A DNA stretch of 64,000 bases from a virus, in IMG/VR virus record IMGVR_UViG_3300033550_000002, positions 1-64,000 of that record. The stretch is one strand, 5' to 3'. The notes under the pieces were generated by a model, which made no database searches, was not told the DNA's origin, and saw only the letters and a list, made by a program, of their open reading frames with translations. Positions within the stretch are counted from its first letter, which is position 1. The number at the start of each line of letters is the position of its first letter. The position numbers and the translations under genes are program-made. Of the stretch, positions 2,741-58,511 are shown piece by piece.

Positions 2741-3591
2741 TGCGGCACGTGGTGCTCGTACCGGCCTGGCGGCGGCCGGACATGCTGTACGCCTGCCTGA
2801 GCCGCCTGGAGAAGGCGGCACGGCCGGGTGTCGAGGTGGTCGTCAGCCTGGACCGGGGCTACGACAAGGAGACGCGGGAGGTCGCGAACCGCTTCACCGG
2901 CCGCCTGCCGGTGCTGTACCTGCGGCTGATGCATCACCACATGTTCCGGGGGAACTCCTACAACGTCCTCTCCGGGCTCGCGGACTGCCTGAAGAGCAGC
3001 CCCGACCTCGTCCACGTGGTGGAAGAGGACATCATGGTGGCTGACGGGTACTTCGAGTTCCACGAGGCGATGCACCGCGCGGAGCCGGGCGCGTTCGCGG
3101 TGAGCGCCTGCCGGAACCAGAACGCACCCGCCACGGGTGCGGCGTACCTGCACCCGTCCTACCAGTCGCTCGGCGTCTCCATGCGGCCGGATGTCGTCGA
3201 GCGGCTGGCCAGGCACACCAACCCGGTGTACTTCGGCGACATGGTGATGTACTGCCGCAAGAATTTCCCCGCGAGCCGGATTCCGCCCGGCCATGCGGAG
3301 CAGGACGGCCTGATCAACCGGGTGCGCGAGAGCCTGGACGGGAAGACGGTCTACGCGGAACGCCCGCGTGCGTACCACGCGGGATTCCACGGCTACAACC
3401 GGACCGGCACCAAGCTCACGGAGGGGCCGTACTGGGAGAGGGCTGAGAGGATTCTCTCGATGACCTCGGACGACCTGAACGCGATGGCCGGGGAGATCAA
3501 GGACTACGAGGCGTTCGACCTGGACGAAGTCCTTCCGCTGGACCAGGAGGAGCGGGCCCTTTCGGCTGGACGTCCCTGGGTCAAACTGTAA
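2740..3591 (+). CDS. glycosyltransferase, GT-A fold
   Basis: TGATG-coupled to the previous gene; 'VLVPAWRRPDML..CL..L', 'VVVSLD', 'HVVEEDIMV' (EED acidic motif). Confidence 0.75.
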   Translation: MRHVVLVPAWRRPDMLYACLSRLEKAARPGVEVVVSLDRGYDKETREVANRFTGRLPVLYLRLMHHHMFRGNSYNVLSGLADCLKSSPDLVHVVEEDIMVADGYFEFHEAMHRAEPGAFAVSACRNQNAPATGAAYLHPSYQSLGVSMRPDVVERLARHTNPVYFGDMVMYCRKNFPASRIPPGHAEQDGLINRVRESLDGKTVYAERPRAYHAGFHGYNRTGTKLTEGPYWERAERILSMTSDDLNAMAGEIKDYEAFDLDEVLPLDQEERALSAGRPWVKL

Positions 3592-3609
3592 GAACCGAGG
3601 TGGACGCAG

Positions 3610-54508: not shown

Positions 54509-56083
54509 TCAGGTGAGCCACGGCCACTTCTCGTCGTACCCGGCCTCCAGCGCGAGCACCTGGGCGAAGACCTGGTCGGTCAGTCCGCCGAACTCGTACC
54601 AGCCCTTCAGGCGGGTGTCGATCACGGTCGAGGCGTACCCGACCGGACTGACGCCGTAGAGCTTCACGCCGTCCGGCACCGGCAGGCTCCCGACGCGGCA
54701 CTGCATGTCCGAGATCACGAACACGCGGTCGTGGCCGTCGAGACGGTTGCGGATCGCGCCCGAGATGTTCGTGCCGTGGCCGACCTCACCGGTCCGCTGG
54801 ACGAAGTCGCGGGCCGCCGACAGGACGCCCTGGCCCGGCTTCACGTTGTGCCGGAACTCGCTGTCCGCGAAGCCGAACAGGTCCACCCGGCCCTGGTTGC
54901 GCTGGGCCAGCGTGACGCCGAAGATCGAGGCGACCTCCGACATCATGACCGTCGACTTCTGCGACATCTTCGTGTAGGTCATCGACGCCGAGGTGTCGAT
55001 GAGCACGAGCGTGCGGCCCGGCAGCTCCGGGACGGACTTCAGCGAGCTGTTGATCGCGTCGTCCAGGGCCTGCTTCCAGCGGTCGCTCGGGGCCTCGCGG
55101 TACGCCGTGTAGAACCGGAACGGGAACTGACGGCTCTTCGCCACCTCGGCCGGGTCGGCCAGCCGGTCGGCCAGCGCGCGCGCCCGCTTCGGGTCGATAC
55201 CTGCCTCGTCCATGTTCCGCAGGTTCCGCAGCGCGGCCATGTACGGCAGGTGCGGGGCCATGGCGTCCCAGACCTTCTTCGCGCCGACGCGCGCCTTCAG
55301 GTCCGAGACCGCGTTCTCCCACGTGATGCCCGCATCCGTGAAGGCGGAGCCGTCGGCGAGGGACGCGAGCTTGCGCTGGTCGTCCAGGCCGTACCAGCGC
55401 TTGCGGGCCGCGATCATCGGGACCGTCGAGATGTCGCCGTCGCCGTGGTGCCGCTCGTCGAGCAGGTACTTGAACAGGGCACCCTGCCAGTCGCCTTCAC
55501 CGCGCTCGGTGCGCGGCTTCGGGTGGACCAGCTCCAGCACGTCCGCGAAGCGCAGGCCGCGCGCGTCGGAGTCCCACTTCAGCACGTTCCGCTCGGTGAA
55601 GAGGCGGCGGATCGCCATCCCCAGACCGGCGCGGACCGCGTTCGGGAGCGCCCGGCCGAAGGTGAGCTGCCAGTACGCCAGGAACTCGGTGATCTCCTCA
55701 CCCCGCTGGATCACGGAGTCGATCAGCTCGGCGTTGCCGTCGTGCTGGCCCGCCTTGAGCCGGGCGCTGACCGCGTGCGCCGCCCCGGTCAGGGAAGCGG
55801 TGCGGATGTTCGCGTCCGAGCGCAGCCAGCGCAGCAGGCCGCGCAGCCACTCCCAGTCGCCGACCGCGTGCAGCTCCACGAGGTTGTTGTAGCGGGCGTC
55901 GCGGCTGGTGCCCTTCTCATGGAAGGTGTCCTGGCCGACGAGGTTCACGGCCGCGAGGCTGTACAGCTCGCCGCGCAGGCCGTGCCCGAAGGCCGGGGCT
56001 CCCTGGTGGTTCACCGTCGCGCCCTTGACGACGTCCTTCGGGCGTCCGGTCGCCCGGACACCTGCGTTGTTGAAGCGTGCCAT
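54509..56083 (-). CDS. rsr: TROVE-domain RNA-binding protein (Ro60/Rsr ortholog)
   Basis: 'MARFN', 'EL..LAAVNLVGQDTFHE', 'PYMAALRNLRN', 'KSRQFPFRFY.AY', vWA MIDAS 'LIDTSASM', 'GHGT', 'ISDMQ'. Confidence 0.93.
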   Translation of the reverse strand: MARFNNAGVRATGRPKDVVKGATVNHQGAPAFGHGLRGELYSLAAVNLVGQDTFHEKGTSRDARYNNLVELHAVGDWEWLRGLLRWLRSDANIRTASLTGAAHAVSARLKAGQHDGNAELIDSVIQRGEEITEFLAYWQLTFGRALPNAVRAGLGMAIRRLFTERNVLKWDSDARGLRFADVLELVHPKPRTERGEGDWQGALFKYLLDERHHGDGDISTVPMIAARKRWYGLDDQRKLASLADGSAFTDAGITWENAVSDLKARVGAKKVWDAMAPHLPYMAALRNLRNMDEAGIDPKRARALADRLADPAEVAKSRQFPFRFYTAYREAPSDRWKQALDDAINSSLKSVPELPGRTLVLIDTSASMTYTKMSQKSTVMMSEVASIFGVTLAQRNQGRVDLFGFADSEFRHNVKPGQGVLSAARDFVQRTGEVGHGTNISGAIRNRLDGHDRVFVISDMQCRVGSLPVPDGVKLYGVSPVGYASTVIDTRLKGWYEFGGLTDQVFAQVLALEAGYDEKWPWLT

Positions 56084-56098
56084 GGAACTTCTCCTCTC

Positions 56099-56860
56099 TC
56101 AGCCGATGTTCATGGTTCGCCGGTAGTCGGCGAAGCGGGCCTTGCGGATGACCGATCGGTCGGCGCTCCGGAAGACGATGCCTTCCGGCGAGCCGTGCCC
56201 CTTCTCGTCGAGTGCGACGCGGGTCTGGGGCAGGGTGTTGCTCAGGAACCGGTGGGTCCCGAAGTGGGTCTCGGGCATCTCGTAGCCCATCACGGTGCAC
56301 AGGTGCGGCACGCGCGGGATGCCGGTCAGGCGGCTGACGTCGTCGAGCTGTTCGACCGACAGGAAGGTCTGGCCGCCGTTCTCACGCCACCGGGAGATCG
56401 TTTCCCGGTCCCACTCGAAGGGCTGGGTGCCCTCCGTCAGGACGTCGAACATGCGGTGGCCGCGCGATCCGCTGCCCGTGTACTGCTTCGCCTGGCCGCC
56501 GATCTTCGAGCCGTAGACCTCCAGGTACACCGCGACCACGCCGAGTTCCGGGGACAGCTCCGAGATCTGGCACAGGCTCTCCGCGACGGGGCGCAGCTCG
56601 GTGACGATGTCGTGGCTGACGCCGGTCGACGGGACCACCCGGTCACCCTTCGCGTGCAGCAGCTCCTCGCGGGAGCCGATGAAGTAGTCACCGCCGGGGA
56701 GCAGGACGATGCGGCCGTTCGTGCCGTCGACCTTCTCGTAGCCGAACACCTCTCCGGTGAACGGTGTCACCTTGTCGGTGAGCCGACCCTTCTCGCCGAG
56801 GACGTGGTAGGTCTCGATCGATGGGTACTTCGTGACGGAGTTCAGGATTTCCAGGTTCAC
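56099..56860 (-). CDS. ATP-dependent RNA ligase (Rnl2-like nucleotidyltransferase)
   Basis: 'KYPSI', motif I 'EKVDGTN', 'GSR', 'EVYG', 'FDV', 'EGIVFR', 'K.R'. Confidence 0.88.
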   Translation of the reverse strand: MNLEILNSVTKYPSIETYHVLGEKGRLTDKVTPFTGEVFGYEKVDGTNGRIVLLPGGDYFIGSREELLHAKGDRVVPSTGVSHDIVTELRPVAESLCQISELSPELGVVAVYLEVYGSKIGGQAKQYTGSGSRGHRMFDVLTEGTQPFEWDRETISRWRENGGQTFLSVEQLDDVSRLTGIPRVPHLCTVMGYEMPETHFGTHRFLSNTLPQTRVALDEKGHGSPEGIVFRSADRSVIRKARFADYRRTMNIG

Positions 56861-56879: not shown

Positions 56880-56910
56880 AAAACAAAAACCCCCTCCGAC
56901 TGGAGGGGGC
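56880..56910 (-). terminator. intrinsic terminator after the Y RNA array
   Basis: GCCCCCTCC-AGTC-GGAGGGGGT followed by TTTTGTTTT on - strand. Confidence 0.8.
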
Positions 56911-56916
56911 GCGATA

Positions 56917-57078
56917 TGCACAGACGTACCGGCCGGTTCACCAGAGCAACTGCGGTTTTTGGAGACCATTGCTCTACCAATTGAGCTACCCAGCTTTTCA
57001 AGGCCGGGACTGGAATTGAACCAGCAACCCACGGTTTGAAGTAACCGCCGTCTTCGCACCGGCCGGTGCGTCCGTGCA
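56917..57078 (-). ncRNA. YrlA-type Y RNA, unit 1 (permuted tRNA-Trp-like domain)
   Basis: paired ends; GGUGCGA...UACUUC / GGUGAACC scaffold; T arm GCUGG-UUCAAUU-CCAGU precedes a loop-closed acceptor stem and D arm GCUC-AAUUGGUA-GAGC; adjacent to the ligase-TROVE operon. Confidence 0.85.
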
Positions 57079-57080
57079 CA

Positions 57081-57252
57081 TCACAGGAATCCTGGAGCCG
57101 CCTGGTTCACCGAGATCGCGACGGGGAACGTTGCGCGTGCTGCCAATTACACTACCGGGCTTTCGCCTTCGCCTGGACTTGAACCGGACTACGCCCTCCT
57201 GAAGGGGAAGTATCCGTCACTGTCGCACCAGACGACACCAGGATTCCTGTGA
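57081..57252 (-). ncRNA. YrlA-type Y RNA, unit 2
   Basis: 15-bp terminal stem; same scaffold; T loop UUCAAGU, GGC-GAAA-GCC closed acceptor mimic, D arm GUGU-AAUUGGCA-GCAC. Confidence 0.8.
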
Positions 57253-57255
57253 ATT

Positions 57256-57333
57256 GCGCCCCCCGGTTCACCGGAACGACTGCGGAGAGTTTCATTACCA
57301 GTGAAGTATCCGCTGTCTTCGCACCGGGGGTGC
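57256..57333 (-). ncRNA. minimal Y RNA, unit 3 (scaffold + anticodon-like stem-loop only)
   Basis: GCACCCCCGGUGCGAAGACAGCGGAUACUUCACUGGUAAUGAA...CCGCAGUC...GGUGAACCGGGGGGCGC. Confidence 0.72.
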
Positions 57334-57340
57334 AGGAAAA

Positions 57341-57370
57341 ACATTACGGGATGCTGCGACGAGGTCGCAA
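57341..57370 (-). promoter_or_regulatory. sigma70/HrdB-type promoter for the Y RNA array
   Basis: TTGCGA-N18-TAATGT; predicted start coincides with the 5' G of unit 3. Confidence 0.7.
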
Positions 57371-58027: not shown

Positions 58028-58145
58028 TGTACACGATGGGATTCGAACCCACGGACCGCACGGAATCACCAGTTCCGCCCGGTCGCCTGCCCCTGTCGCT
58101 GGGACGACTTCAGCAGGCACCCTTTGGCCACTCGGGCACGTGTAC
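58028..58145 (-). tRNA. atypical class II (Leu-like) tRNA with 24-nt anticodon loop and long variable arm
   Basis: 7-bp acceptor GUACACG/CGUGUAC, discriminator A, D arm CCC-GAGUGGCCAAA-GGG, T arm GUGGG-UUCGAAU-CCCAU. Confidence 0.7.
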
Positions 58146-58254: not shown

Positions 58255-58325
58255 AACCTGTGACGGGATTTGAACCCGCGCCGCCGACACCCTCACGTCG
58301 GAGTGCTGCGCTACACCACACAGGC
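58255..58325 (-). tRNA. tRNA-like gene with 8-nt anticodon loop and no D-loop GG
   Basis: GCCUGUG/CACAGGU acceptor; CCGAC-GUGAGGGU-GUCGG; GCGGG-UUCAAAU-CCCGU. Confidence 0.65.
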
Positions 58326-58437
58326 CGGAATCCAGGAGCGGAAGCGTGGAGCCGCCGCTGTGCCTTCCTGGATTCCTTGTTGGTTCAAAAAGGACCGAGG
58401 GCTGTGCTGTGCCAACAGGGTGCAACCCCCGGTCCAG

Positions 58438-58511
58438 TCGACGGAGAAGGACTTGAACCTTCGACCTCTGGTTTATCAGACCAGTGCTCTACCGAACTGA
58501 GCTATCCGTCG
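58438..58511 (-). tRNA. tRNA-Ile(GAU), CCA not encoded
   Basis: canonical cloverleaf; CUGGU-CUGAUAA-ACCAG; discriminator A. Confidence 0.92.

What the first reader, a model, noticed from the sequence alone, without database searches (positions are those of the whole stretch)
56917..57078. Y RNA unit 1 contains a complete circularly permuted tRNA-Trp(CCA) opened at the anticodon loop
Seen: the 3' half (AA-ACCGU-GGGUU-GCUGG UUCAAUU CCAGU-CCCGGC) comes first. An 8-nt linker CUUGAAAA closes the acceptor stem. The 5' half follows (GCUGGG-UA-GCUC AAUUGGUA GAGC-A-AUGGU-CU CCA AA). Joining CUCCA to AAACCGU rebuilds a near-canonical tRNA-Trp with loop CUCCAAA, and the D-arm/anticodon sequence matches bacterial tRNA-Trp as I recall it. 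Inference: either a recent capture of tRNA-Trp into a Y scaffold, a mimic of an anticodon-cleaved tRNA, or a precursor that the neighbouring ligase could circularise and mature, as with permuted tRNA genes in red algae and archaea.
Basis: partly seen in the sequence, partly recalled or inferred. Interest (0 to 1): 0.85.

Follow-up and report, generated by a model that had tools for sequence, protein, structure and literature searches.

The report
Phage Y RNA with tRNA-Trp relic
This is an ordinary YrlA-type Y RNA of a Streptomyces jumbo phage (a Ro-protein partner RNA that mimics a tRNA); unusually, its tRNA-like part still spells out the anticodon arm of tRNA-Trp, which says something about where such RNAs came from but does not make it a working tRNA gene.

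Summary
The sequence is exactly as described, on the minus strand at 56917-57078. That call is not diagnostic. Every possible join, in every homologue, is called some tRNA.

The T arm, closed acceptor stem, D arm order is the published YrlA architecture. The literature already describes YrlA as resembling a circularly permuted tRNA. Unit 1 lies 834 nt upstream of a phage Ro/TROVE gene. Rfam YrlA matches it at E=4e-7, below the gathering score. Seven homologues support the 5'/3' anticodon stem and a covarying Levitt pair.

The link to tRNA-Trp is real. BLAST of the unit returns tRNA-Trp genes. The 5' half without the loop still hits phage tRNA-Trp best, at 30/32. The 3' strand also continues like tRNA-Trp past the anticodon.

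The acceptor stem has 6 bp, with an A·C mismatch at 1:72 and U at position 73. Maturation into a working tRNA is therefore unlikely.

Verdict: a new member of a known kind, carrying a tRNA-Trp footprint that fits the dimeric-tRNA origin model. First readers noted the same stretch twice in overlapping windows.

The parts
56917..57078 (-). Y RNA unit 1 (YrlA class), 162 nt, last of three tandem units
   Evidence: Rfam RF02553 40.8 bits, E = 4.4e-7. Fold z = -5.7. Seven-homologue alignment A1: 86% of cells paired, 25 pairs with compensatory change, 0/500 shuffles reach this.
57058..57078 (-). 5' strand of the long basal helix; pairs with 56917-56937
   Evidence: Helix 1: 90.5% paired, 13 pairs changed on both sides.
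57052..57060 (-). GGUGCGAAG, the presumed Ro-contact motif
   Evidence: Direct reading. Present in all three units. Matches 6/7 of the vertebrate GGUCCGA. One position off the YrlA motif GNCGAAN0-1G quoted in PMC4201824.
57036..57044 (-). 5' side of the 9x9 internal loop, UUACUUCAA. Holds the conserved YUAY (UUAC) and ends in AA, the equivalents of tRNA positions 37-38
   Evidence: UUACUU is invariant in A1. YUAY is a conserved YrlA feature (PMC4201824). The last two bases are R-A in all 7 homologues.
57031..57035 (-). ACCGU, 3' strand of the anticodon-like stem; pairs with 56965-56969
   Evidence: Helix 3: 100% paired, 4 of 5 pairs compensatory.
57009..57030 (-). Variable loop GGGUU and T arm GCUGG-UUCAAUU-CCAGU
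   Evidence: T stem 100% paired with 3 compensatory pairs. U48 pairs with A15 (Levitt pair), which covaries with G15:C48 in Kradal, L150 and L184. The only natural variant inside unit 1 is A57 to G57 of the T loop (57017).
56989..57008 (-). Closed acceptor-like stem: CCCGGC, linker CUUGAAAA, GCUGGG (6 bp including one G·U)
   Evidence: Helix 5: 97.6% paired, 3 compensatory pairs. Flanking bases are A and C (no 7th pair), followed by U at the discriminator position.
56970..56988 (-). U8-A9, D arm GCUC-AAUUGGUA-GAGC, A26
   Evidence: D stem invariant in 7 homologues. Matches the Rfam YrlA consensus.
56965..56969 (-). AUGGU, 5' strand of the anticodon-like stem
   Evidence: helix 3.
56956..56964 (-). 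3' side of the internal loop, CUCCAAAAA. Carries C32-U33-C-C-A-A-A of a tRNA-Trp anticodon loop
   Evidence: C32 is conserved in all 7 homologues, but U33 and CCA occur only here.
56937..56955 (-). 3' strand of the lower stem and Ro helix. Begins CCGCAG-UUGC, which continues the tRNA-Trp sequence (anticodon-stem 3' strand, variable loop, start of T stem)
   Evidence: ACCGCA-GUUGC against actinobacterial tRNA-Trp ACCGCAGGUUGC: 11/12 with one gap, reached by 7/1000 shuffles. The BLAST matches to tRNA-Trp run to unit position 133.
56889..56910 (-). Intrinsic terminator directly after unit 1
   Evidence: 9-bp GC-rich stem plus T run. Conserved in Kradal, Kela, L150 and L158.
57081..57252 (-). Y RNA unit 2, tRNA-like, with a hairpin whose loop is UUCAGGA
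   Evidence: Same scaffold; Kradal, L150 and L184 have the homologue.
57256..57333 (-). Y RNA unit 3, scaffold plus one hairpin with loop CUGGUAA; no T or D arm
   Evidence: Direct reading. Homologues in Kradal, L150 and L158.
56099..56860 (-). ATP-dependent RNA ligase gene (253 aa)
   Evidence: Pfam PF09414, E = 9.8e-11. phrog_548 'RNA ligase'. The Kela homologue is annotated RNA ligase.
54509..56083 (-). Ro60/TROVE gene with a vWA domain (524 aa)
   Evidence: PF05731, E = 5e-17. phrog_850, E = 4.5e-40. Annotated 'Ro-like RNA binding protein' in Kradal and Kela.

Best explanation
Unit 1 is a YrlA-class Y RNA of a Streptomyces jumbo phage related to Kradal, Satis and Kela.

Anatomy. It is transcribed with two other Y RNAs as a ~420-nt array, which ends at a terminator just before the phage's RNA-ligase and Ro60 genes. 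The long basal helix carrying GGUGCGAAG is the Ro-binding part. The distal part folds like the L of a tRNA: T arm, acceptor stem closed by an 8-nt loop, D arm, and an anticodon-type stem made from one 5' and one 3' strand.

Function. As in other YrlAs, the distal part is the module that a tRNA-binding effector would recognise while Ro holds the stem.

The two halves of the former anticodon loop are not joined. They form a 9x9-nt internal loop between the anticodon-like stem and the Ro stem.

The anticodon region of this copy derives from tRNA-Trp. The cause is either a relic of the tandem (dimeric) tRNA from which YrlAs are proposed to have arisen, or a short patch copied later from a tRNA-Trp gene. 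The RNA is not matured into a decoding tRNA-Trp.

Shown: the sequence, the fold supported by covariation, the Ro and ligase neighbourhood, the similarity to tRNA-Trp, and the lack of conservation of the anticodon. Inferred: Ro binding, effector recruitment, co-transcription, and the evolutionary route.
For: Context: Ro/TROVE and RNA-ligase genes lie on the same strand, with Ro starting 834 nt downstream of unit 1. The window is ~74% identical to Streptomyces phages whose Ro gene is annotated.

Family: Rfam YrlA matches at E = 4e-7 here, and also in Kradal (43 bits) and Kela (36 bits).

Fold:
- anticodon-like stem formed between the 5' and 3' strands, 100% paired, 4/5 compensatory
- T stem 100% paired
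- acceptor stem 97.6% paired
- D stem invariant
- basal helix 90.5% paired, 13 compensatory pairs

The rival model of two local hairpins is no better than shuffles. The Levitt pair 15:48 covaries, A:U against G:C. The YUAY motif is invariant.

Literature: YrlAs lie next to Ro in 254 bacteria and 22 phages (PMC4201824). The closed acceptor stem, the missing anticodon loop, the 'circularly permuted tRNA' description and the dimeric-tRNA origin model are in bioRxiv 10.1101/312249.

tRNA-Trp origin:
- Whole-unit BLAST and the loop-free 5' half both point to tRNA-Trp.
- 44/47 identical to phage JoeDirt tRNA-Trp across the join, and 52/60 to the Nocardia-type tRNA-Trp.
- The 3' strand continues as tRNA-Trp for 11/12 nt after the anticodon.
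- The 5' strand carries GCGGU, the tRNA-Trp anticodon-stem 5' strand.

Against maturation: 6-bp acceptor stem, A·C at 1:72 and U at 73. Homologues keep C32 and R37-A38 but not U33 or CCA.
Against: - The Rfam score (40.8 bits) is below the family's gathering score (69).
- The 5' motif is one base off GNCGAAN0-1G.
- No RNA data exist for this phage, so expression, ends, Ro binding and the absence of processing are all inferred.
- The body of the module outside the anticodon arm is only weakly Trp-specific. With loop and acceptor masked, the best of 373 phage tRNAs is a tRNA-Trp at 44/51, but an Asn reaches 42. The T-arm half alone shows no Trp preference.
- Relatives show no Trp preference at all, so a dimer relic and a later patch cannot be told apart.
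- M. smegmatis YrlA is cut by RNase P and receives CCA (PMC4201824), so some processing of some YrlAs is real.
Confidence: 0.8

Rival explanations
1. Functional mimic or decoy of tRNA-Trp, or of a tRNA-Trp nicked in its anticodon loop. The split loop would present the tRNA-Trp anticodon arm to a host anticodon nuclease or to the repair machinery. Ro plus the adjacent ATP-dependent ligase would then act as a phage counter-defence or tRNA-repair platform.
For: - The chain break falls at A36-A38 of the Trp loop.
- Actinobacterial VapC25/29/33/37/39 cut tRNA-Trp(CCA) at A36-A39, mainly A37|A38 (PMC5175351).
- Ro, a Y RNA and an RNA ligase form a known RNA-repair operon that responds to cleaved tRNAs (PMC7790460; PMC7824862).
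- Units 2 and 3 and many phage YrlAs carry anticodon-loop-like hairpins.
- The neighbouring tRNA cluster contains aberrant tRNA-like genes.
Against: - The closest relatives keep the Ro and Y RNA array, and the Kela type also keeps the ligase, without any Trp anticodon.
- No Streptomyces nuclease specific for tRNA-Trp was identified here.
- No experimental data exist.
- Sequence retention may be neutral.
Confidence: 0.1
2. Permuted pre-tRNA-Trp. The Ro-stem extension would be excised, the ends joined by the neighbouring ligase into a circle, and the acceptor loop opened by RNase P/Z, giving a decoding tRNA-Trp.
For: - The re-joined sequence is cloverleaf-perfect and called tRNA-Trp.
- A ligase gene lies 57 nt downstream of unit 1.
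- M. smegmatis YrlA is cut by RNase P and gets CCA.
- Wang et al. raised this possibility for YrlAs in general.
Against: - The acceptor stem has 6 bp, and a 7-bp stem is the stated determinant of RNase P cleavage.
- A1·C72 is a mismatch and position 73 is U, whereas bacterial TrpRS uses G73 (established knowledge).
- There is no bulge-helix-bulge motif, and no bacterial or phage splicing endonuclease is known.
- Six homologues lack U33 and CCA.
- Kradal carries a normal tRNA-Trp gene elsewhere and has no ligase at this locus.
- ARAGORN calls any join a tRNA.
Confidence: 0.05
3. The tRNA-Trp look is coincidence. A-rich 3' loops are typical of this YrlA subtype, and two or three chance bases would complete CUCCAAA.
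For: - Relatives have CAAAUAGUC, CAAAAUGUCA, CCCAAAAGC, CAAAAAGC and similar loops.
- With the loop masked, the Trp preference is marginal.
- The T half shows no Trp signal.
Against: - 22 of 25 nt around the loop match tRNA-Trp, including 11/12 after the anticodon, where only pairing and not identity is constrained.
- The loop-free 5' half still hits tRNA-Trp best, 30/32, E = 1e-5.
- Whole-unit BLAST returns tRNA-Trp and no other isotype among the top 60.
Confidence: 0.05

Closest known systems
YrlA, the tRNA-like bacterial and phage Y RNA (Rfam RF02553; Chen et al. 2014, PMC4201824; Wang et al. 2018, bioRxiv 10.1101/312249, PDB 6CU1)
   Same: - Encoded next to Ro60 and on the same strand.
- Long basal helix with a GGUCCGA-like motif.
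- Conserved YUAY.
- Order T arm, closed acceptor-like stem-loop (6 bp, as in Salmonella), D arm.
- Anticodon-like stem made from the 5' and 3' parts.
- Levitt-pair covariation.
- Several Y RNAs per locus.
- An RNA ligase in the operon.
   Different: - Scores below the Rfam gathering threshold.
- Both halves of an anticodon loop are still legible and spell tRNA-Trp.
- The 3' strand carries a second copy of the tRNA-Trp anticodon-stem 3' strand and variable loop.
- Phage-borne three-unit array.
- The ligase is an ATP-dependent PF09414 enzyme, not RtcB.
Circularly permuted tRNA genes of Cyanidioschyzon merolae and Thermofilum pendens (Soma 2007; Chan 2011, as cited)
   Same: - The 3' half precedes the 5' half.
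- The acceptor stem is closed by an intervening linker.
- The termini pair.
   Different: - Those precursors carry a bulge-helix-bulge motif cut by the splicing endonuclease, are circularised and become decoding tRNAs.
- Here the termini run into a ~35-bp Ro-type helix through a 9x9 loop.
- The acceptor stem is 6 bp with a wrong 72/73.
- The anticodon is not conserved in homologues.
tRNA-Trp(CCA) of actinobacteria and actinophages (for example phage JoeDirt gp108; the Nocardia, Rhodococcus and Saccharopolyspora type)
   Same: - 44/47 identical to JoeDirt over acceptor 5' strand, D arm, anticodon arm and variable loop.
- 52/60 identical to the bacterial type, including the T arm.
   Different: - Permuted order.
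- Closed 6-bp acceptor stem.
- No G73 or CCA end.
- Not detected as a tRNA in its native order.
Dimeric-tRNA origin model for YrlA (Sim and Wolin 2018, as described in bioRxiv 10.1101/312249)
   Same: - T arm from a first tRNA and D arm from a second.
- The remaining anticodon-arm strands of the two copies cross-pair. Here GCGGU pairs with ACCGC, and ACCGU with AUGGU.
   Different: - It is a model, not a family.
- Only this lineage shows the Trp footprint, so a later patch from a tRNA-Trp gene explains the data equally well.

Membership tests
YrlA (RF02553) | Within 4 kb of a Ro60/TROVE gene and on the same strand (criterion of PMC4201824) | tested here: met
   Unit 1 ends at 56917 and the TROVE gene starts at 56083, both on the minus strand.
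YrlA (RF02553) | T-like arm, then a closed acceptor-like stem-loop, then a D-like arm | tested here: met
   T stem 100%, acceptor stem 97.6%, D stem 100% paired in 7 homologues.
YrlA (RF02553) | Anticodon-like stem formed by the 5' and 3' parts, leading into the Ro-binding helix | tested here: met
   helix 3: 100% paired, 4/5 compensatory. The local-hairpin alternative is not above shuffles.
YrlA (RF02553) | Conserved YUAY upstream of the variable region, and tRNA tertiary pairs such as a covarying Levitt pair 15:48 | tested here: met
   UUAC is invariant in A1. A15:U48 in the window, Kela, L158 and L194; G15:C48 in Kradal, L150 and L184.
YrlA (RF02553) | 5' motif GNCGAAN0-1G | tested here: inconclusive
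   The sequence reads GGUGCGAAG. The CGAAG part fits, but the first G of the motif is U. It matches 6/7 of the vertebrate GGUCCGA (motif).
YrlA (RF02553) | Rfam gathering score (69 bits) | tested here: not met
   40.8 bits, E = 4.4e-7. Kradal scores 43 and Kela 36 bits.
YrlA (RF02553) | Bound by Ro60; pseudouridine 55 and dihydrouridine made by TruB and DusA | not testable with these tools
   No RNA holder was listed for this stretch.
Circularly permuted tRNA genes (algal and archaeal) | 3' half upstream of the 5' half, with the acceptor stem closed by a linker | tested here: met
Circularly permuted tRNA genes (algal and archaeal) | Bulge-helix-bulge motif at the paired termini, for the splicing endonuclease | tested here: not met
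   The anticodon-like stem is followed by a 9x9-nt internal loop and then a 7-bp and a long helix. There is no 3-nt bulge, 4-bp helix, 3-nt bulge arrangement.
Circularly permuted tRNA genes (algal and archaeal) | Matures to a decoding tRNA, which needs a 7-bp acceptor stem, a proper discriminator and a conserved anticodon | tested here: not met
   6 bp plus A·C, and U at position 73. The anticodon is absent from 6 of 7 homologues.
Circularly permuted tRNA genes (algal and archaeal) | Circular intermediate or junction reads | not testable with these tools
   Only DNA-type contigs hold the stretch. No joints were seen in them.
tRNA-Trp(CCA) | Detected as a tRNA in its native order | tested here: not met
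   ARAGORN found no gene in unit 1. RF00005 gave only a 16.6-bit partial match.
tRNA-Trp(CCA) | Sequence similarity to tRNA-Trp beyond the anticodon | tested here: met
   30/32 without the loop. 44/47 and 52/60. With loop and acceptor masked, the top hit is Trp but by a small margin.

The most novel reading that the evidence does not exclude
Unit 1 is a deliberate mimic of tRNA-Trp cut in its anticodon loop, the product of VapC-type anticodon nucleases known from actinobacteria. Together with phage Ro and the adjacent ATP-dependent ligase, it would form a counter-defence device, acting as a decoy for the nuclease or as a sensor or guide for repair. The three Y RNAs and the neighbouring aberrant tRNA-like genes would then present a panel of different anticodon arms.
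Probability: 0.1. Interest if true: 0.8.

Novelty: new member of a known kind. Interest (0 to 1): 0.4.

Why it matters
YrlA RNAs are proposed, without sequence evidence, to have evolved from tandem tRNA transcripts. This copy still carries legible pieces of two tRNA-Trp anticodon arms that cross-pair exactly as that model requires. It is therefore a concrete specimen for testing the model, or else an example of a Y RNA being patched from a tRNA gene.

It also adds a Streptomyces jumbo-phage locus of Ro, an ATP-dependent ligase and three Y RNAs to the known Ro/Y RNA/RtcB repair operons. This phage is common in soil metagenomes.

For annotation, it shows that a 'permuted tRNA' next to a TROVE gene should be read as a Y RNA, not as a tRNA gene.

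Tried and rejected
- The search for related loci with the Ro protein in IMG/VR: no confirmed relative.
- IMG/VR pattern for T arm, 15-45 nt, D arm, GGUCUCCAAA: 119 stretches, of which 117 contain a tRNA-Trp gene called by ARAGORN, mostly preceded by another tRNA-like element; the other 2 got no call. No Y RNA of the window's type was seen.
- IMG/VR pattern GGUGCGA-N6-CGGUUACUUC...T arm: 4 contigs, all of the hairpin-carrying subtype, with no intermediate relative of unit 1.
- Metagenome and genome scans for GAGC-N3-GGUCUCCAAAAACCG (five A's): 85 and 7 stretches. Most are tRNA-Trp genes with an extra A, many from long-read assemblies. A few are unrelated sequence. None is a Y RNA.
- Kradal's own tRNA-Trp as donor of the Trp patch: only 54/70 identical with gaps, so rejected.
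- T-arm half alone against phage records: hits Arg, Phe, Met and Pro tRNAs, E >= 3e-3, with no Trp signal.
- Local-hairpin fold (GCGGUU...AACCGU and UGGU...ACCG): not supported by covariation.
- phmmer of the ligase against PDB sequences: no match at E <= 0.01.
- Sequencing runs: no RNA holder was listed. Contigs from four studies were laid and show no joints.
- Sigma-70 scan: no promoter call. The conserved TTGCGA-N18-TAATGT upstream of unit 3 is my own reading only.
- The Annual Review on Ro60 and Y RNAs (PMC10870794) is not held.

Full report
**What is there.**
The feature lies on the minus strand. Reading 57078 down to 56917 gives, in order:
- a long 5' helix strand containing GGUGCGAAG
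- ACGGCGG
- a 9-nt stretch UUACUUCAA
- ACCGU, then GGGUU
- a T arm, GCUGG-UUCAAUU-CCAGU
- CCCGGC, the linker CUUGAAAA, then GCUGGG
- UA, then a D arm GCUC-AAUUGGUA-GAGC, then A
- AUGGU
- a 9-nt stretch CUCCAAAAA
- CCGCAGU
- the 3' helix strand with GGUGAACC

The unit folds much better than shuffled sequence (z = -5.7).

**Genomic setting.**
The window is a 64-kb piece of an 80-kb IMG/VR virus record estimated 42% complete. It is about 74% identical to the ~186-kb Streptomyces phages Kradal, Satis, Quantum and EhyElimayoE. It is also related to Kela and JustBecause.

On the minus strand the order of features is:
- an FtsK-like gene
- tRNA-Ile(GAU)
- two aberrant tRNA-like genes
- a small ORF
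- three tandem Y-RNA-like units (57333-56917)
- a strong terminator (56910-56889)
- a 253-aa RNA ligase (PF09414, phrog_548)
- a 524-aa Ro60/TROVE protein
- a phage ProQ-like protein

In Kradal and Kela the corresponding ~520-580-bp gap next to the Ro or ligase genes is unannotated but holds the same three units.

**Family.**
Rfam YrlA (RF02553) matches 56943-57051(-) over its full length at 40.8 bits, E = 4.4e-7. This is below the curated 69 bits. The Kradal and Kela units score 43 and 36 bits.

I aligned seven unit-1 homologues: the window, Kradal, Kela and four IMG/VR contigs. I then counted pairs for the YrlA-type fold.
- The anticodon-like stem formed between the 5' and 3' parts is paired in all seven, with compensatory changes at 4 of 5 pairs.
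- The T stem is 100% paired and the acceptor-like stem 97.6% paired.
- The D stem is invariant.
- The basal helix is 90.5% paired, with 13 compensatory pairs.
- No shuffle of 500 reaches the observed covariation.

The alternative of two local hairpins is indistinguishable from shuffles. The Levitt pair covaries: A15:U48 in the window and the Kela group, G15:C48 in Kradal, L150 and L184. UUAC, the YUAY motif of Chen et al., is invariant.

These are the features by which YrlA was defined (PMC4201824). That paper already reported YrlAs next to Ro in 254 bacteria and 22 phages. The structure paper (bioRxiv 10.1101/312249) makes several statements that bear on this finding:
- YrlA has a closed acceptor stem and lacks the anticodon loop.
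- Most YrlAs 'resemble circularly permuted tRNAs'.
- It compares them with algal and archaeal permuted tRNA genes.
- It cites the model that YrlAs arose from dimeric tRNA transcripts.

The topology that made this finding look exceptional is therefore the known YrlA layout.

**Is it specifically tRNA-Trp?**
ARAGORN calls the re-joined sequence tRNA-Trp(cca), but this is not a test. The two loop strands can be joined in eight ways to give a 7-nt loop. For the window these give Glu, Gly or Trp. For the six homologues every join is also called a tRNA: Ala, Val, Ile, Thr, Phe, His or Pro.

The independent evidence runs as follows.
1. BLAST of the whole unit against 50,697 phage records found the four Kradal-type Y RNAs full length. 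It then found annotated tRNA-Trp genes in 53 of the best 60 records, and no other isotype. These matches cover unit positions ~88-133 contiguously: D arm, anticodon stem, CUCCAAA, and on through ACCGCAG-UUGC.
2. The 32 nt without the loop (acceptor 5' strand, D arm, AAUGGU) still hit mycobacteriophage tRNA-Trp best, at 30/32 and E = 1e-5.
3. The re-joined sequence is 44/47 identical to phage JoeDirt tRNA-Trp across the join. It is 52/60 identical to the tRNA-Trp shared by Nocardia, Rhodococcus and Saccharopolyspora, T arm included.
4. Right after the anticodon the 3' strand reads ACCGCA-GUUGC. Actinobacterial tRNA-Trp reads ACCGCAGGUUGC. That is 11/12 with one gap, reached by 7 of 1000 shuffles.

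Some evidence limits the claim.
- The T half alone shows no Trp preference.
- With loop and acceptor masked, the best of 373 phage tRNAs is a Trp at 44/51, but an Asn reaches 42.
- The homologues show no Trp preference.

The Trp signal is real but concentrated in the anticodon arm of this one lineage.

**A footprint of two tRNA-Trp anticodon arms.**
The unit contains two copies of the tRNA-Trp anticodon-stem 3' strand and variable loop: AAACCG-UGG-GUUGCU in the 5' part and AAACCG-CA-GUUGCU in the 3' part. It also contains both 5' strands, GCGGU and AUGGU.

In the supported fold they cross-pair. GCGGU pairs with ACCGC, which is the native tRNA-Trp stem. AUGGU pairs with ACCGU. The two substitutions, G27 to A and C43 to U, favour the cross-paired form over the local hairpins.

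This is what the dimeric-tRNA model predicts. The relatives lack the footprint, and Kradal's own tRNA-Trp is not close. A later short patch from some tRNA-Trp gene fits equally well. I cannot decide between the two.

**Why it is not a tRNA gene.**
- The acceptor-like stem has 6 bp. The next bases are A and C, so there is no pair. The discriminator position is U, whereas real tRNA-Trp here has A1:U72 and G73.
- Chen et al. attribute RNase P cleavage of M. smegmatis YrlA to its 7-bp stem, and saw none for the 6-bp Salmonella RNA.
- There is no bulge-helix-bulge motif.
- All seven homologues conserve C32 and R37-A38, but U33 and CCA occur only in the window.
- Kradal has a normal tRNA-Trp gene elsewhere and no ligase at this locus.

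**Population data.**
The 481-nt array is held nearly unchanged by runs from 11 studies of soil, plant, groundwater and invertebrate-gut metagenomes. I laid contigs from four of these studies. They differ at 2-7 positions. Only one change falls within unit 1, and it turns A57 of the T loop into G57, a purine-for-purine change at a position that is a purine in tRNAs. No RNA data are available.

**Wider family (outside the finding).**
The motif CGGUUACUUC followed by a T arm occurs in at least 120 IMG/VR contigs. Of 124 distinct sequences, 71 carry a 5-bp, 7-nt hairpin directly before the variable loop.
- Its loop has the anticodon-loop signature: pyrimidine 80%, U 83%, three variable bases (32 different triplets), purine 89%, A 80%.
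- In a set of 66 such sequences, the two inner pairs of this hairpin covary in cis.
- The two outer positions of its 3' strand covary with C-Y-U right after the D arm (0/500 shuffles each).
- This suggests a composite anticodon stem with the chain break at about 29/30 and an intact anticodon-like loop.

Chen et al. call this hairpin 'V' and equate it with the variable arm. Unit 2 of the window fits the composite model. Unit 1 and its clade belong to a minority subtype in which the break lies in the loop itself.

**Mechanism and odds.**
- About 0.8: a Ro-bound Y RNA whose tRNA-shaped module recruits a tRNA-binding effector, with the Trp sequence an evolutionary footprint.
- About 0.1: a functional tRNA-Trp or nicked-tRNA mimic in a Ro and ligase counter-defence. 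This is attractive because actinobacterial VapCs cut tRNA-Trp at A36-A39 (PMC5175351) and because Ro, Y RNA and ligase operons respond to cleaved tRNAs. It is untested.
- About 0.05: a permuted pre-tRNA.
- About 0.05: pure coincidence.

Noticed in passing
IMG/VR loci L128-L247 (for example L143, L196, L131); window unit 2 at 57081-57252 and unit 3 at 57256-57333: In 71 of 124 distinct phage YrlA-like RNAs, the hairpin upstream of the T arm (the 'V' stem-loop of the literature) has a 5-bp stem and a 7-nt loop. The loop has the anticodon-loop signature Y-U-NNN-R-A, with 32 different triplets. In a set of 66 of these, covariation suggests a composite anticodon stem: the outer pairs are made with C-Y-U after the D arm and the inner pairs in cis. 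These RNAs would then be tRNAs permuted at about 29/30 with an intact anticodon-like loop. This may be more interesting than the finding itself.
   Followed up: partly
L156 (IMGVR_UViG_3300037420_002271), minus strand, around 3563-3603: A distant phage YrlA-like RNA carries UUCGG-CUCCAAA-CCGG(U), a complete tRNA-Trp-type anticodon arm, on its 5' side. After its D arm it carries CCGGU-CUCGAAAAGU. This is a second case of two Trp-like anticodon arms in one Y RNA.
   Followed up: partly
window 58255-58325 (-) and 58028-58145 (-): Two aberrant tRNA-like genes lie upstream of the Y RNA array. One has an 8-nt anticodon loop (RF00005 43.9 bits; ARAGORN 'tRNA-???'). The other is a 118-nt match (35.3 bits). 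A normal tRNA-Ile(GAU) lies at 58437-58511. Earlier notes of the scan treat them separately.
   Followed up: no
L127 (Streptomyces phage Francob, PP537961.1), about 1500-1590: An unannotated module with T arm, closed stem and D arm, and an ACCGC/GUGGU stem, sits inside a tRNA array between tRNA-Ile and tRNA-Ser. It is a YrlA-like RNA embedded among tRNA genes. I did not check whether Francob encodes Ro.
   Followed up: partly
window 56099-56860 (-) compared with L001 (Kradal) and L002 (Kela): The RNA ligase between the Y RNA array and Ro is present in the window and in the Kela and JustBecause type, but absent from the Kradal and Satis type. There the array abuts Ro directly. The ligase is therefore an optional part of the module.
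   Followed up: partly
window 57341-57370 (-): A TTGCGA-N18-TAATGT element lies just upstream of unit 3. It is conserved in Kradal, Kela, L150 and L158. It is the likely promoter of the three-unit array, although the consensus scan did not call it.
   Followed up: partly
L250-L368 (IMG/VR, mostly sample 3300045988): In 81 of 119 phage contigs, a tRNA-Trp gene is preceded at ~20 nt by a conserved element that has a T arm and terminal pairing (GCCGCC...GGGCGGC). ARAGORN does not call it a tRNA. It may be an unrecognised tRNA-like RNA.
   Followed up: no
L459 (Streptomyces anulatus NRRL B-2873 contig34.1), about 3253-3274 (-): A tRNA-Trp-like gene with an 8-nt anticodon loop (CUCCAAAA) and an encoded CCA end, in a Streptomyces genome. 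It could be a prophage tRNA or an assembly error.
   Followed up: no
window 56880-57360: The Y RNA array is found almost unchanged in runs from 11 studies of soil, plant, groundwater and invertebrate-gut metagenomes. This phage lineage is widespread.
   Followed up: partly
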